A stretch of DNA of 64,000 nt from Octopus sinensis (Eukaryota). The notes under the pieces were generated by a model. That model saw only the letters and a list, made by a program, of their open reading frames with translations, did no database searches and was not told where the DNA came from. The position numbers and the translations under genes are program-made. Each line of letters begins with the position of its first letter. Position 1 is the stretch's first letter. The DNA lies in assembly GCF_006345805.1 (NCBI RefSeq), contig NC_043011.1, positions 4,836,001-4,900,000 of the forward strand, read 5' to 3'. This document shows, in pieces, positions 2,892 through 27,295 of this stretch.

Positions 2892-3880
2892 GCGTGGTTG
2901 TGTAGTAAGAAGCTACCTACTCAACCACATGGTTCTGAGTTCAGTCCCACCCATGGAACATAGGGCAAGTGTCTTCTACTGTAGCTTTGGGACAACTAAC
3001 GGTTTGTGAGTGGTTTTGGTAGACGGAAACTGAAAGGAGCCTCTCCTGTCTCCAAATCTTTTCCTCACCCCTTCACAGTTCTCTGTCTGTGACTCTCTCT
3101 CCCTCACTCTGCCTCCTTTGCTCACGTGGCTCCCACGTGACCATCGGTCATTCTCCTAACTTGTGTTTCTTTCTTTCTTCTTATTTCAGCTGCACAGGGA
3201 AGACATATTGTTCTCTGTCTCCTGTCCAGATTTGTTTCTTCGCGTTCGCCACCACAACCTCATTTAGGCTTAGCAGCCCTTCTTGTTTGTTTTCACTATC
3301 CTGCTTTTATCACCAATCTTGATTCTCTTCAAGATCGCAAATTTTATTTAATTTGCTTTGCGAGTGCAACTGTTTTATCGAAGGCGTATCTTGTCGTGAA
3401 TTGCTCGAAATACGGATTAGAAAAACGGCCGACAACTGATGAAGAGTCGTTCCTTGTGTTTCTTGTCTTGTTTTCCATTTGTTTCTTTCGTTGCTTGCAA
3501 AAAATCCTTATTCCACATCCTCGTATTTCGTATTAATTTTTGTTTATGTTTTGTGACGTCCTGTGCCCACATATGCTTATGTACATACGTAAACATGTAT
3601 GTACGTATACGTATACATATATATATATATATGTATATATATATATATATATTATCTATATTATATTATATTATATATACATACATACATACATACATAC
3701 ATATGTATGTGTGTGTGTGCTTTCCTTACCTCGCCTGACAACCGTTGTTGGTTTGTTTATGACCACGTAACTTAGCGATTCGACAAAAGTGTCCAATAGA
3801 ATAAGTACCAGGGTTGATTTGCTCGGCTAAAACCCTTTAAGTCGTTGCCACAGCATGGCCATGATCCATTGACTGAAATA
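2892..3880 (+). mobile_element. Old family-A SINE split by insertion of a ribozyme-bearing element (3041 to ~3600)
   Basis: tRNA-like head and core at 2892-3040 and 3' half at ~3715-3880 match the intact copies (e.g. 37290-37750). Confidence 0.8.
3385..3447 (+). ncRNA. Non-circularly permuted hammerhead ribozyme candidate, copy 1
   Basis: CGTAT-C-TTGTCG..GCTC-GAAA-TACG..CGACAA-CTGATGA-A-GAGT; stems III, I and II all pair; predicted cut after 3390 (AUC). Confidence 0.75.
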
Positions 3881-4114
3881 ATGTATCTTAGCTACGATCT
3901 GATGTTTCATTCATTGATGGTTTGCTATGTTTCAAATATAATGTGATGCTTTATAGATAGCTTCCTATAGCTTTGATAAAACTTCGGGATGTTGTTCATA
4001 GATTTCCATATTCTAGCTATGCTCTGTCCAACATAGATTTGTATATATAAATGTATATATAAATTTATTTCTACGTTGAAATATTGATAAGCCTTTCCTT
4101 TATTATTATTATTA

Positions 4115-4622
4115 TTGAGTGAGAGAGCAGTGCATGCCATCAAAGTGACACTGGGGTAAAATATACGAAACCCAGTATACCTATCATGACTACCCGTCTG
4201 ATAAGGGCACACCAGGCACATGCATCACAACCATATGTGCACGACATAGTGATCTCATATCAAGATAAACAGCACATGACCTTGCAGGTGAGGCCCAATT
4301 AAAATTTTCTTCAGGTCGAGTAGCCAGCCCATCCTACTCAAAAGGTCCCTGAATAAGGATTTTTTAAGGATGCTGAACAAAACACCCATGTTTCCACAGG
4401 TGAATTATCCAAACCTCAAAGAATTCCTCTCAACACATGGCTATGATGCTCCTCCAATACTTCTGCTTGTGATCAGAGATGCACGTATCGTCAGCCACTA
4501 AGGGACATGGCCAACTAATTAAGGTTAAGCAACTGACACGCAAATCTATGGTATTGAGCAGAATATTTGCTGTTAGTCCATCTTTTATACCAAGACAAAA
4601 CAATGTACATGATAACACCTCC
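4115..4622 (-). mobile_element. Interspersed retroposon-like repeat with a (TAA)n tail
   Basis: ~500-bp complex sequence bounded by (ATT)n tracts; the minus strand ends in (AAT)n; family not assigned. Confidence 0.45.
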
Positions 4623-4756
4623 ATTATTTTATTATTATTATTATTATTATTATTTTTATTATTATTATTATTATTATTATTATTATTATTATTATTATTA
4701 TATTATTATTATTATTATTATTATTATTATTATCATTATTATCATTATTATTATTA

Positions 4757-5070
4757 TTTGCCAAAAGGGCAACAGATGAGGGGAATATTACATTTTGTGC
4801 GGGGTTTTACAAAGGGAAGAAAGACAGCTGGAGAAATGAAATGAAAGTATGATAGTGTACAAAGTGTGTGTATACTACTATGCAGCAATCCTACTGATGC
4901 AACGGAATCTCTAACTTGGACCAATCAAGAAATCCCACAGATCCAAGATCGCTCGGACCACCAAGGACACAAGCCCTTGCGAAACTCTTCTTTCCAAGTT
5001 CGAAGGCGCATGCTTAGAGTAGGATTGTTCAGCCTAATCATTTTTGGCAGAGTCACCCAGTTTTGACAAA
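4757..5070 (-). mobile_element. Possible 3' end of a Tx1/L1-like LINE
   Basis: Minus strand reads VKNWVTLPKMIRLNNPTLSM-like peptide, then a UTR ending ...cccttttggcaaataataat. Confidence 0.3.
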
Positions 5071-5778
5071 TTCACTGGGAAATAATAAGATGAGGTATGA
5101 TTATTTTGTGTGTGTTATTGAGAAAGAGGGTGAGAAAGGGAGAGAGTGAGGTAAGAGAGTGGCGAGGGAGAGACGTGAGAGAGAGAGAGAGAGAGTTGGT
5201 AGAAAGAGCTGTGAGAGAACAACGACAAAATGTGTTTGTGTGACAAAGATGACAAGGTTCGGATAGATTAACAGACTCGTAGTTGGAAAGAGACACAGAT
5301 TTGGTTAGTTAAAAGTGAGGGAGAGAAAACAGGAGGGAAACGCAGGGAGAAAAAGGGAATCCAGTCTTTTTTCTTTCTTTCTTTTTTTCCAAGGAATAAG
5401 GTCAAGTTAGATAATTATTGCTGGTTTTGAAAAATAATGATTTGTAAGTTAGGCACAAGGCCAGAAATTTAAGGCGACTGATAAAAACAATCACAAAAAA
5501 GAAGAACAACAACAACATAAACACACACGCATGCGCGCGGGCTAAACATTTTACTACTATTTATTTTCTCTAGACTAGAATGATGAAAGGTAAATAGAAA
5601 GCCAGTATTAAATAAAATAGGATATTTAGATTTATTCGTCTGCCATAGAAGAACGTTCTCTTGGAATTGACTTAGCTGAGCTCATTAGCGTTTAATAGAT
5701 CACGAGGAAAATCTACACAAACATATATATGCATGATGCGTGTGTATGTGTGTGTGTGTTTGTGTGTGTGTATATATA

Positions 5779-24676: not shown

Positions 24677-25197
24677 TTTATTGCATTTTATTGCAGAAAC
24701 AGGTGTAAGCTAACAATGTTCATAGGATAAATAGAAATATGGCTATTTCTAAGTCTCTCTAAAGGAGACTACAGCAGCGGTATTGGATCGCCAAGGATAG
24801 GATAATCGTTGATTCCCTTATCTTCGCATTCTCTCTCACACACATTCTTTTATTCTTTACTTGTTTCAGTATATGTATATATATATACATATATATATAT
24901 ATATATATATATATATATATATATATATATATATATATATATATATATATATACATACAATTTGGTGCTCCAGCATAGCCGCAGTCAAACGACTGAAACA
25001 AGTAAAGAATAAAAGAATGTGTGTGAGAGAAAGAGAGAGAGAGGATGCGAAGATAAGGGAATCAACGATTATCCTATCCTTGGCGATCCAATACCGCTGC
25101 TGTAGTCTCCTTTAGAGAGACTTAGAAATAGCCATATTTCTATTTATCCTATGAACATTGTTAGCTTACACCTGTTTCTGCAATAAAATGCAATAAA
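24677..25197. repeat. Near-perfect ~195-bp inverted duplication (24677-24870 and 24992-25197)
   Basis: Arms are reverse complements, differing only in a (GA)n tract. Confidence 0.92.
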
Positions 25198-26409
25198 ACA
25201 TTCTATCGGCCTCCTTGCCGAACCGCTATATATATATATATGTATATATACATATATATATATATATATAGCGGTTCGGCAAAGAGGCCGATAGAATAAG
25301 TACTGGGCTTACAAAAGAATAAGTCCCGGGGTCGAGTTGCTCGACTAAAGGCGGTGCTCCAGCACGGCCGCAGTCAAATGACTGAAACAAGTAAAAGAGA
25401 GAGTATACACACACACACACACAAACATATATATATATATATATATATATATATATATACACATAACGGTAAAAGACAGACATACGATCATACAGATGCA
25501 CACATATACATATATATGTGTGCATTTACCGTTTTGACAACCGGTTAAGTAAGCGTCCGATGGAATAAGTACCAGAGTTGAAACTGTACAAGGATCGATT
25601 AGATCAAGTAAACTGCTCCAGACTGAACCCTGGCATAGACCCAGTCAAATGAGTGAAACAAAAGATTAACAGAATACAGCTGAGAATATGAACGGGAGAC
25701 AGAGAAAGGGAATGCATAGAAGAGAGAGAGAGGGAAGGGAACAGAAGGAAGGGACTGATAGATAATAAACTTTGTTTAACCTGATAAAATGACCCTACTG
25801 AACCCGATAGCTTGATGCCAGTCTTAAATATTTGTCCCTTAATCGACCGGTTACTATCTCAGCTTCAACATCATCAACATGCTTTGTGTATTCTAGCGTT
25901 TTATTCCACCCAGTTTACTTTCATACCTACCCTCCTATAGCCTATGTTACCTAAACATTCACCCTTTCCCATCACTACAAAGAATCTCCCCCATCACTGT
26001 AAATGCTGGCACATCTCATCTCAACCTACCACCGTCTTCCACACCACTGCTTTTATACTAAGACAAGCATTGTCAGTAGTAACAAACTAATTACCAACCT
26101 TTCCACAAGCAAACGATGAAGCTACTATGCGGTCACTGTGACTTGCTAGAAATAGCAACCACTCTGCTTCAAACTATATCTTCTCGTCCTCTGGAACTTA
26201 ATTCATCGACCCCGAAAGAATGAAAGGTAAAGTTGATCTCGGTGGAATTTGATCTCGGTGGAATTTGATCTCACAACGTAAAGACGGATGAAATACTGCT
26301 AAGCATTTCACCCGGCGTGTTAAACTTTCTGCCAGCTCACCGCTTTCGGTCATCGTAATATTTACTGCTCTACATCTTAGAGTGTGTTTCCCCTCCAGAT
26401 TTATGTATT

Positions 26410-27070
26410 TCTACAAACGTTATATTTGTTAGTGCAGATGATAGAGATAGCATAGGTTGTCTACAATTGAAATTGGTCAGCTACACAGATCACAAATATG
26501 TGATACGCTCAGTCGATTTAGATTGGACCCGTAGACAGGGACCCGGTTACTGGAAGTTGAATGCGACCTTACCGGCTCGCAAAGACTACAGGGACCGGAT
26601 TAGCGAACTAGTCAACAACCGGTAGTGGATCGCTCTGAAGAGAGCGATTAGAATAGAATCGATAGCGTCTAGCAACGATTTAGAAATAGGAAGAAATAGA
26701 TTAGAGGGAGAACTAGTTAGCAGACTAGAAGAGGCTATTAGTAAAAGGGTCGAACCGACGTGTTAGCGGCGAGAATGGTCCTTCACCATTTCTTTGAGGC
26801 GAAGTAGGAAGGGTGCGTTGTCAGAGATAAGGCCCTTCGCTAAAACACAAAGGAACTATAGCCGTCCGATGGGCCCGAACGGTAAAGACGCGATGTGGAA
26901 ACAAAACCACAATGAAGTCTTTGACAGATTTGGACGGACGTGAATTACTCGGTTCTGAGCAGATGTGCGCGGTTTTCCAGCAGCACTTTGAGCGAATGTT
27001 TGGGGAGCGTGATGGATCGATGATGGTAGCGAACTCTACTTCGTAACTAGACGGCCTACCACGGCTCTCT
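26410..27070 (+). pseudogene. Tx1/L1-clade LINE ORF2 fragment (end of APE endonuclease plus linker)
   Basis: YTDHKYVIRSVDLDWTRRQGPGYWKLNATL..W.ALKRAIR matches the SDH...GPGYWKLN..LL...W..LK motifs; contains stops. Confidence 0.85.
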
Positions 27071-27235
27071 GTGAAGAACGCGAGATTCTGATTTTATCTT
27101 GTATTTTATTTTGTATTTTTATTTGTATCGTTTTTACGTCCTGTTTGTGTTACATTTTTTTCTTTCTTTGTTTTTACCCCTCTGCGAAGTAATTTTATTT
27201 TAATTCTCTCGCAGGAAGGGCTATTTTTTACGAGT

Positions 27236-27295
27236 CGTGTTCTGTCTTACCTTCGAAACACGCTAGAGTTGAACTAGAGACAGCTGATGAAGGGG
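27236..27295 (+). ncRNA. Non-circularly permuted hammerhead ribozyme candidate, copy 4 (third sequence family)
   Basis: CGTGT-T-CTGTCT-ta-CCTTC-GAAA-CACG..AGACAG-CTGATGA-A-GGGG; perfect stems III (5 bp) and I (6 bp); carrier element ~27090-27490. Confidence 0.75.

What the first reader, a model, noticed from the sequence alone, without database searches (positions are those of the whole stretch)
3385..27295. Hammerhead ribozymes with a non-circularly permuted strand order in at least three repeat families
Seen: four loci (3385-3447 +, 7292-7355 +, 16333-16395 -, 27236-27295 +) hold all hammerhead core nucleotides in the order [stem III-UH-stem I]-linker-[stem II-GAAA-stem III']-linker-[stem I'-CUGAUGA-A-stem II']. 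The stems covary between families. Stem III is CGTAT/ATACG, CGTGT/ACACG or ACCAT/ATGGT; stem I is TTGTCG/CGACAA, TTGTTG/CGACAA, CTGTCT/AGACAG or TCAAAT/ACTTGA. The GAAA-to-CUGA spacing is 23-26 nt. Established: type I, II and III hammerheads are circular permutations of the order CUGAnGA, GAAA, UH, and the order here (UH, GAAA, CUGAnGA) is none of them, so it needs a pseudoknotted fold. Natural non-circular hammerhead permutations have, to my recollection, been reported but are rare. Inference: an abundant cephalopod retroelement lineage uses such a ribozyme, with predicted cuts after 3390 (AUC), 7297 (AUA), 27241 (GUU) and 16390 on the minus strand (AUC). Whether this family is already described is unchecked.
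Basis: partly seen in the sequence, partly recalled or inferred. Interest (0 to 1): 0.92.

Follow-up and report, generated by a model that had tools for sequence, protein, structure and literature searches.

The report
Core-split permuted hammerhead in Naiad retrotransposons
Repeats in this animal genome carry a hammerhead RNA motif wired in a scrambled order, with two extra helices predicted to open its catalytic core; the same motif ends many Naiad jumping genes reported to lack this ribozyme, so it is likely their missing self-cutting RNA, although cutting is untested.

Summary
The four motifs are real. They have the order UH, GAAA, CUGAnGA, which is type SGC of Eckert 2023, and a genome-wide pattern gave 6,793 hits against 273 control.

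Across 14 unrelated families the GAAA-side strand pairs with a strand upstream of the whole motif (4.9 Watson-Crick pairs cognate, 2.7 non-cognate), not with the bases after CUGAUGA (1.21 vs 1.15). The backbone is therefore opened between A9 and G10.1. A closing helix (P5) and a hairpin (P6) are predicted to form a four-way junction there. I found no such layout in nine literature searches.

One family lies in cis behind Naiad reverse transcriptase in this genome. Of 80 metagenomic Naiad loci, 13 carry a permuted hammerhead, all on the sense strand in the 3' UTR (9 split-SGC, 4 CSG, none canonical). Naiads are published as lacking canonical hammerheads. The window's own families look like non-coding derivatives, and no ORF was linked to them. 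Cleavage is untested and most copies are decayed.

The scan noted related things before on other DNA: rearranged hammerheads in Penelope-like elements, a core-opened phage hammerhead, and twister-like Naiad motifs.

The parts
3321..3448 (+). Locus 1, family A, full motif. P5a 3321-3326; P6 hairpin 3327-3363 (outer stem 4/6, inner 7/7); stem IIa 3364-3369; P4a 3370-3376; IIIa-U16.1 3385-3389; H17=C3390 (predicted cut 3390/3391); Ia 3391-3396; IIb 3401-3406; GAAA 3407-3410; IIIb 3411-3414; P4b 3422-3428; Ib 3430-3435; CUGAUGA 3436-3442; P5b 3443-3448. Partly decayed (mismatch at pair 10.2-11.2).
7228..7356 (+). Locus 2, family A, full motif. P5a 7228-7233 (4/6, decayed); P6 7234-7270; IIa 7271-7275; P4a 7277-7283; IIIa-U 7292-7296; H17=A7297; Ia 7298-7303; IIb 7309-7313; GAAA 7314-7317; IIIb 7318-7321; P4b 7330-7336; Ib 7338-7343; CUGAUGA 7344-7350; P5b 7351-7356.
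16331..16456 (-). Locus 3, family F, full motif. P5a 16456-16448 (9/9 with P5b 16339-16331); P6 16447-16411; IIa 16410-16406; P4a 16405-16400; IIIa-U 16395-16391; H17=C16390; Ia 16389-16384; IIb 16378-16374; GAAA 16373-16370; IIIb 16369-16366; P4b 16358-16353; Ib 16352-16347; CUGAUGA 16346-16340.
27177..27295 (+). Locus 4, family B, full motif, well preserved. P5a 27177-27181; P6 27182-27214; IIa 27215-27219; P4a 27221-27227; IIIa-U 27236-27240; H17=U27241; Ia 27242-27247; IIb 27250-27254; GAAA 27255-27258; IIIb 27259-27262; P4b 27271-27277; Ib 27278-27283; CUGAUGA 27284-27290; P5b 27291-27295.
3044..3580 (+). 5'-truncated family A repeat that carries locus 1 and ends at a TA-rich tract (limits approximate)
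7135..7485 (+). 5'-truncated family A repeat that carries locus 2 and ends at (TA)n (limits approximate)
16233..16830 (-). Family F repeat that carries locus 3 and ends at (TA)n (5' limit approximate)
27092..27425 (+). 5'-truncated family B repeat that carries locus 4 and ends at a TA-rich tract (limits approximate)
53202..53249 (-). Extra truncated family B copy with only IIb-GAAA-IIIb, Ib, a mutated core (UUGAAGA) and P5b
18467..18508 (+). Extra truncated family E-type copy with only the GAAA and CUGAAGA blocks

Best explanation
The four loci are partly decayed copies of a hammerhead motif in non-circular S-G-C order whose stem II strand lies upstream of the motif; it is predicted to fold with an extra four-way junction at A9/G10.1 and likely cleaves after H17 as the terminal-repeat ribozyme of Naiad retrotransposons and their likely non-coding derivatives. 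Strand order (shown): P5a, P6 hairpin, IIa, P4a, IIIa-UH-Ia, IIb-GAAA-IIIb, P4b, Ib-CUGAnGA, P5b. Fold (inferred from covariation and folding): P5 encloses P6 and a P4/III arm, while stems II and I cross it as two pseudoknots. P4 ties the far ends of stems I and II, like the interaction helix of type SGC. P5 and P6 would stack on each other across the A9/10.1 step and hold A9 next to G10.1 although these are no longer linked. Chemistry (from established hammerhead knowledge): G12/G8 acid-base cleavage 3' of H17. Role (inferred): the cut would release unit-length RNA from read-through or tandem transcripts. After the cut, P5, II, P4 and III all bridge the two products, so the ends would stay clamped and could religate into circles or be read across by reverse transcriptase. 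That would give the partial tandems seen, and explain why copies keep both halves of the ribozyme and end 60-150 nt further on at (TA)n.
For: Upstream stem II: cognate 4.93 vs non-cognate 2.70 WC pairs over 14 families, 0 of 20,000 permutations reach it; P5 5.07 vs 3.25, 0 of 20,000. With no stem II requirement, 9 of 9 sense SGC hits in 80 Naiad loci have 4-6 upstream WC pairs (7 have 6) and at most 3 adjacent ones. In 15 representatives, pairs 1-4 of upstream stem II form in 60 of 60 cells, with 3-4 WC types at pairs 3-4 and G10.1-C11.1 in 15 of 15; the adjacent model gives 29 of 60. Unconstrained RNAfold returned P5, P6, P4 and III in 9 of 15 by my reading. Of 80 Naiad loci 13 have hits, all sense and in the 3' UTR, none canonical, none antisense or in the ORF. 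Family N lies 0.2-2.4 kb behind Naiad RT homology in 11 of 45 RT-selected places in this genome. The same layout is visible by eye at 3' ends of published Naiad consensi (Octopus, Acropora and others), and type CSG in nematode Naiads. A Naiad clade without the motif carries a twister-like motif instead (10 loci, no overlap with the 13). A one-base insertion at A9/G10.1 is tolerated in the CChMVd hammerhead (PMC3705267 passage). Non-circular hammerheads cleave in vitro (PMC10085705).
Against: No cleavage data. Only assembled contigs could be laid and they showed no pile-up of ends. 5' truncations show no sharp peak at the cut site (within 21 nt of GAAA: family B 8 of 28, A 5 of 30, N 1 of 30). 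Only 24 of 99 unselected genomic copies keep all tested helices. 67 of 80 Naiad loci had no hit; 27 of those in the tree have at least 600 nt after the RT match, and a relaxed scan of 32 found none. No ORF was linked to the window's families A, B or F, so their Naiad origin rests on shared architecture and target site. The upstream strand was chosen as best in a 45-nt window, H not G was built into the descriptor, and C11.1 was part of the own-genome patterns. The automatic P5/P6 anchoring misplaced at least 4 of 15. At A10 in CChMVd, C or G is strongly detrimental, so this position is not freely tolerant. In families A, B and D the bases after CUGAUGA-A can form 4 pairs with IIb, mostly G-U.
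Confidence: 0.8

Rival explanations
1. The fold is real and hammerhead-derived but is inactive or very slow. It serves as a structural signal for the Naiad reverse transcriptase or ribonucleoprotein rather than as a cutter.
For: Genomic copies run through the cut site and end further 3'; no sharp truncation peak at the site; the core is interrupted at A9/10.1, where Eckert et al. say known alignments show no insertion above 1-2 nt; many Naiads lack the motif.
Against: All catalytic nucleotides, the A15.1-U16.1 pair and G10.1-C11.1 are kept in elements whose RTs are about 30-42% identical to the query; intact-core CSG forms and a twister-like motif occupy the same place in related Naiads.
Confidence: 0.12
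2. One reading: an ordinary type-SGC hammerhead with an intact block C, in which stem II forms with the bases after CUGAUGA plus one extra A; the upstream helices are an alternative or inhibitory fold.
For: Families A, B and D allow 4 pairs there; an extra A at this place exists in CChMVd; type SGC is proven to cleave.
Against: No cognate excess across families (WC 1.21 vs 1.15); adjacent pairing is 0-1 bp in 7 of 9 metagenomic examples; those bases pair instead with P5a (4-13 bp in the nine examples).
Confidence: 0.07
3. Chance arrangement of short words in a few amplified repeats.
For: Copy number alone inflates genome counts, and the descriptors select for stems I and III.
Against: 0 SGC hits in 200 shuffles; helices P4, P5, P6 were not searched for yet appear with different sequences in at least 14 families; strict sense and 3' UTR placement.
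Confidence: 0.01

Closest known systems
Type-SGC hammerhead ribozymes (HRIMA-1 and variants; Eckert et al. 2023, PMC10085705; main text read, figures not visible, supplement searched only)
   Same: Block order S, G, C; two pseudoknots; short linker from stem I to stem II; an extra helix joining the far ends of stems I and II.
   Different: There block C is intact and the RNAs are from metatranscriptomes, none from genomes of known organisms. Here the chain opens between A9 and G10.1, the stem II strand and P4a are moved to the 5' end, P5 and P6 are added, and the motif is genomic and tied to retrotransposons.
Type-CSG hammerheads (same paper; two sequences in the text, five in the supplementary table; soil DNA)
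   Same: Same ring of strands opened at another place; I found it in 4 of 80 Naiad loci (3 distinct) and by eye in nematode Naiad consensi.
   Different: Intact core, no P5/P6; the paper gives no genomic context or link to retroelements in what I read.
Type I hammerheads in the pseudo-LTRs of canonical Penelope-like elements, and the HHR_core / HHR_half_core labels of Naiads (Craig et al. 2021, PMC8557442; passages and parts of the supplement)
   Same: Sense strand, near the 3' end of a Penelope-like element; Naiad_Ovul and Naiad_Esco are labelled half_core.
   Different: Canonical C-G-S order there. The authors saw partial cores in Naiads but could fit no fold and concluded that Naiads lack canonical hammerheads.
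Non-LTR retrozymes (preprint 10.64898/2026.07.22.740005, passages; Cervera and de la Pena 2020, search listing only)
   Same: Non-coding, tandem, ribozyme-bearing units thought to be mobilised by Penelope-like elements.
   Different: Defined by type I hammerheads; family B here has an 800-nt unit with the split permuted motif.
CChMVd (+) hammerhead with extra A10 (PMC3705267, passage) and core-insertion variants (Perreault 2011, PMC3088659, passages)
   Same: Natural insertion in the core, at A9/G10.1 in CChMVd.
   Different: One or two bases, not two helices and a chain break.
Pseudoknot-containing hammerhead (Zhan et al. 2024, PMC11300833, passages)
   Same: Helix II is formed as a pseudoknot.
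   Different: Pistol-like connectivity with a triplex on helix IV; the core is described as joining helices I, PK and III, with no junction at A9 in the passages read.

Membership tests
Hammerhead ribozyme | Core C3-U4-G5-A6-N7-G8-A9, G12-A13-A14-A15.1, U16.1-H17 | tested here: met
   these words were the search terms, so their co-occurrence with unsearched helices is the evidence
Hammerhead ribozyme | Stems I, II, III flanking the core, with covariation and G10.1-C11.1 | tested here: met
   with stem II formed by the upstream strand
Hammerhead ribozyme | Contact between the far ends of stems I and II | tested here: met
   P4, 8-12 bp in 9 of 9 metagenomic examples and 6-7 bp in the window
Hammerhead ribozyme | Self-cleavage 3' of H17 | not testable with these tools
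   needs a bench assay; only contigs could be laid
Type-SGC hammerhead (Eckert 2023) | 5'-3' order S, G, C | tested here: met
Type-SGC hammerhead (Eckert 2023) | Block C intact: CUGAnGA followed within 2 nt by the stem II strand | tested here: not met
Types I/II/III hammerhead (Rfam models) | Circular order C, G, S | tested here: not met
   Rfam gathering gave 0 hits on 20 Naiad loci; in the window only the best 150 of 300 Rfam matches were shown and none was a ribozyme
Naiad Penelope-like elements | ORF with N-terminal GIY-YIG and Naiad RT in cis | tested here: inconclusive
   RT in cis for family N and for the metagenomic loci; no ORF linked to window families A, B, F (one family A motif 3.45 kb behind an RT motif in L202 is ambiguous)
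Naiad Penelope-like elements | (TA)n target, fixed 3' end, 5' truncation, tandem and inverted copies | tested here: met
   (TA)4+ within 400 nt in 37 of 42 A, 28 of 29 B, 21 of 32 N, 2 of 2 F copies, at family-specific distances, vs 41% background
Non-LTR retrozymes | Non-coding tandem units with a ribozyme in each unit | tested here: met
   family B period 780-820 nt in partial tandems such as L377, L388, L389, L401; no Naiad, Neptune or Poseidon coding remnant continuous with 30 long copies
Non-LTR retrozymes | Type I hammerhead | tested here: not met
Non-LTR retrozymes | Circular RNA in vivo | not testable with these tools
   no RNA run on record held the stretch

The most novel reading that the evidence does not exclude
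Naiad retrotransposons do have terminal-repeat ribozymes, but in forms that standard searches cannot see. One is an undescribed hammerhead topology in which the non-circular SGC ring is opened inside the catalytic core and re-closed by a four-way junction. It interconverts in evolution with type CSG, is replaced by a twister-like RNA in another clade, and drives a family of 0.8-1.1 kb retrozyme-like repeats with thousands of copies in octopus. Animal genomes would then be the main reservoir of non-circularly permuted ribozymes.
Probability: 0.62. Interest if true: 0.92.

Novelty: new variant of a known kind. Interest (0 to 1): 0.86.

Why it matters
Three points. (1) The six-permutation scheme for hammerheads assumes that CUGAnGA and its stem II strand cannot be separated; this motif would break that assumption and add a topology with a four-way junction in the core. 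(2) Non-circular hammerheads were known from metatranscriptomes and a few metagenome sequences with no host; here they are tied to a named retrotransposon clade and are abundant in an animal genome. (3) It would resolve the published puzzle that Naiads lack hammerheads and reopen the question of what the terminal-repeat ribozyme does for Penelope-like elements. Many natural covarying variants of about 100-130 nt are ready for a simple cleavage assay and for structure work.

Tried and rejected
Neptune-like element next to a family A copy in L041: its 30 best copies end about 400 nt after the stop at (TA)n without the motif, except the seed locus, and five long-ORF copies show no motif with recognisable stems; rejected as a cis carrier. 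Poseidon-like element: 0 of 30 copies have either block order downstream. Viral contigs: no Naiad relative. Rfam: nothing relevant. Expression: no RNA holder listed; laying four contig sets showed no end pile-up and cannot show ends. 5' ends at the cut site: inconclusive (one upstream partial copy, L401, starts within 2 nt of it). RT tree: quick method only, the careful search did not finish; 80 of 81 loci used; the split and CSG labels are clustered but need 6 and 2 changes, and no direction of change is claimed. A stricter genome-wide count of intact family A copies was not obtained. Weinberg et al. 2015 (PMC4509812), cited for hammerheads with additional helices, is not held and was not read; Eckert's figures and alignments, and bioRxiv supplements, were not seen and could bear on novelty. 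Searches that found no description of this layout or of permuted hammerheads in Naiads; subscription journals are mostly missing from that library.

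
Full report
Observation. Stems III are 5/5 at all four; stems I are 6/6 at three and 5/6 at locus 3. A descriptor for all six block orders found three SGC hits in the window and none in 200 shuffles; without a stem II requirement it found all four. 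In the 2.72-Gb host genome a GAAA-to-CUGAUGAA pattern gave 6,793 hits against 273 control, in at least seven sequence families. This order is type SGC of Eckert et al. 2023 (PMC10085705, main text read), who showed cleavage in vitro, found the type only in metatranscriptomes, and assumed that CUGAnGA and the adjacent stem II strand (block C) cannot be separated.

The stem II correction. In every family the bases before GAAA have a partner about 20-45 nt upstream of the cut site, for example GAGCA/TGCTC, GAAGG/CCTTC and GGACA/TGTTC in the window. I tested both models on 14 unrelated representatives by swapping partners. Upstream: 4.93 WC pairs cognate, 2.70 non-cognate, 0 of 20,000 permutations as high. 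Adjacent: 1.21 vs 1.15, 8,471 of 20,000. The bases after CUGAnGA pair instead with a strand further upstream (P5: 5.07 vs 3.25, 0 of 20,000), and between P5a and IIa lies a hairpin (P6), often with no unpaired base at either side. A further helix P4 joins the strand after IIa to the strand before Ib. In 15 representatives the first four pairs of upstream stem II form in 60 of 60 cells with G10.1-C11.1 invariant, against 29 of 60 for the adjacent model. The upstream strand was picked as the best in a window, so the permutation test and not the 60 of 60 is the control. Automatic P5/P6 anchoring was wrong in at least four cases; one search has the better anchors. Plain RNAfold gave P5, P6, P4 and III in 9 of 15 by my reading. 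The resulting order is P5a, P6, IIa, P4a, IIIa-UH-Ia, IIb-GAAA-IIIb, P4b, Ib-CUGAnGA, P5b: the SGC ring opened between A9 and G10.1. The geometry, P5 and P6 stacked across stem II and the G-A pairs of the core as a four-way junction, is my inference.

What carries it. Craig et al. 2021 (PMC8557442, passages; supplement parts and searches) report that Naiad Penelope-like elements insert in (TA)n and lack canonical hammerheads, though some have half cores. By eye, the 3' ends of their Octopus consensi carry the split motif, as do Acropora and several others, while nematode Naiads carry type CSG. The Octopus-type motif (family N) has 288 exact pattern hits here vs 0 control and lies behind Naiad RT homology on the same strand in 11 of 45 RT-selected places. 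An RT fragment from this genome retrieved 38 longer relatives; the three I read have an N-terminal GIY-YIG. An alignment of 25 of them fetched 80 metagenomic loci. An all-order descriptor hit 13 of the 80, all sense and in the 3' UTR: 9 split-SGC and 4 CSG (two identical in RT), none canonical, none antisense. With no stem II requirement, the same 13 plus two weak antisense hits appeared, and all 9 SGC hits had the upstream partner. All nine show P4, P5 and P6 with different sequences. Rfam sees none of them. On a quick RT tree both forms occur in more than one clade, and a split and a CSG example share one supported subclade. 67 loci had no hit. Many are cut short, but 27 have long 3' regions, and in one 25-row clade 10 loci carry a different covarying motif that resembles a type-P5 twister by recalled consensus.

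The window's families. Families A (loci 1, 2), B (locus 4) and F (locus 3) have fixed 3' ends at (TA)n about 110-165 nt past the core, variable 5' ends, and tandem or inverted copies. Long A and B copies begin with a splice-donor-like word and a pyrimidine tract and show no ORF. Family B forms partial tandems with a period of about 800 nt. Neither the Neptune-like nor the Poseidon-like young element of this genome carries the motif. I read these families as non-autonomous, retrozyme-like derivatives of Naiads. The link is by architecture and target site, not by a coding sequence in cis. Most copies are dead: 24 of 99 unselected copies keep all tested helices. In the window, locus 1 has a stem II mismatch, locus 2 a decayed P5, locus 3 a stem I mismatch, and locus 4 one P4 mismatch.

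Mechanism. Shown: strand order, covarying helices, position and strand in Naiads. From established hammerhead chemistry: cleavage 3' of H17 if the core folds. Inferred: the junction restores the A9/G10.1 stack; P5b, the last strand made, licenses folding; four helices bridge the two products and favour religation or read-across, which fits copies that keep both halves and form partial tandems. Against: no RNA evidence, no sharp truncation peak at the site, and in CChMVd a single extra C or G at this position is harmful.

Novelty. Nine searches found Eckert 2023 as the only paper using type-SGC, and no paper that links permuted hammerheads to Naiads or describes helices inserted at A9/G10.1. 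Passages of a 2026 retrozyme preprint, an Octopus repeat annotation, PMC13725137, PMC10162972, PMC3088659, PMC11300833 and a 2026 zeta-virus preprint did not describe it. Weinberg 2015, cited for hammerheads with additional helices, could not be read. Earlier notes of this scan on other genomes mention rearranged hammerheads in Penelope-like elements, a core-opened phage hammerhead and twister-like Naiad motifs. I saw them after my own tests and do not count them as support. Verdict: a new variant of the hammerhead, works like type SGC but fails its intact-block-C criterion; interest 0.86.

Noticed in passing
L232:2410-2530, L236, L241:4060-4195, L243, L244, L245, L246, L253, L259, L266: A Naiad clade without the hammerhead carries another conserved, covarying motif in the 3' UTR, repeated upstream of the ORF in L243 and L244. 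It resembles a type-P5 twister (recalled consensus); Rfam gives no hit.
   Followed up: partly
L248:3435-3560, L263:2885-3000, L278:3570-3690, L279: Type-CSG hammerheads with intact cores in Naiad 3' UTRs; the type was published from very few soil DNA sequences without context.
   Followed up: partly
L186:4849-7281, L187-L190: A young, high-copy Neptune-like element (811-aa ORF, C-terminal GIY-YIG, upstream ORF, copies about 97% identical in the endonuclease) ends at (TA)n with no CUGAnGA ribozyme near its 3' end.
   Followed up: partly
L346-L375: A young Poseidon-like element also shows neither hammerhead order within 1.5 kb downstream in 30 of 30 copies.
   Followed up: no
L377, L388, L389, L401: Family B partial tandems with a period of about 800 nt; in L401 the upstream copy starts within 2 nt of the predicted cut.
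   Followed up: partly
window 53202-53249 (-) and 18467-18508 (+): Two more copies truncated inside the motif, just downstream of the predicted cut site.
   Followed up: partly
PMC8557442 supplement, near part 17: One Naiad consensus seems to hold an S-G-C arrangement with a long S-to-G linker and stem II close after CUGACGA, a possible third form; read by eye only.
   Followed up: no
window 61075-62103 (-): Tc1/mariner-type transposase fragments (recognised from the translation).
   Followed up: no
window 25200-25297: Perfect inverted repeat around a (TA)n tract that scores as a microRNA-like hairpin below Rfam thresholds.
   Followed up: no
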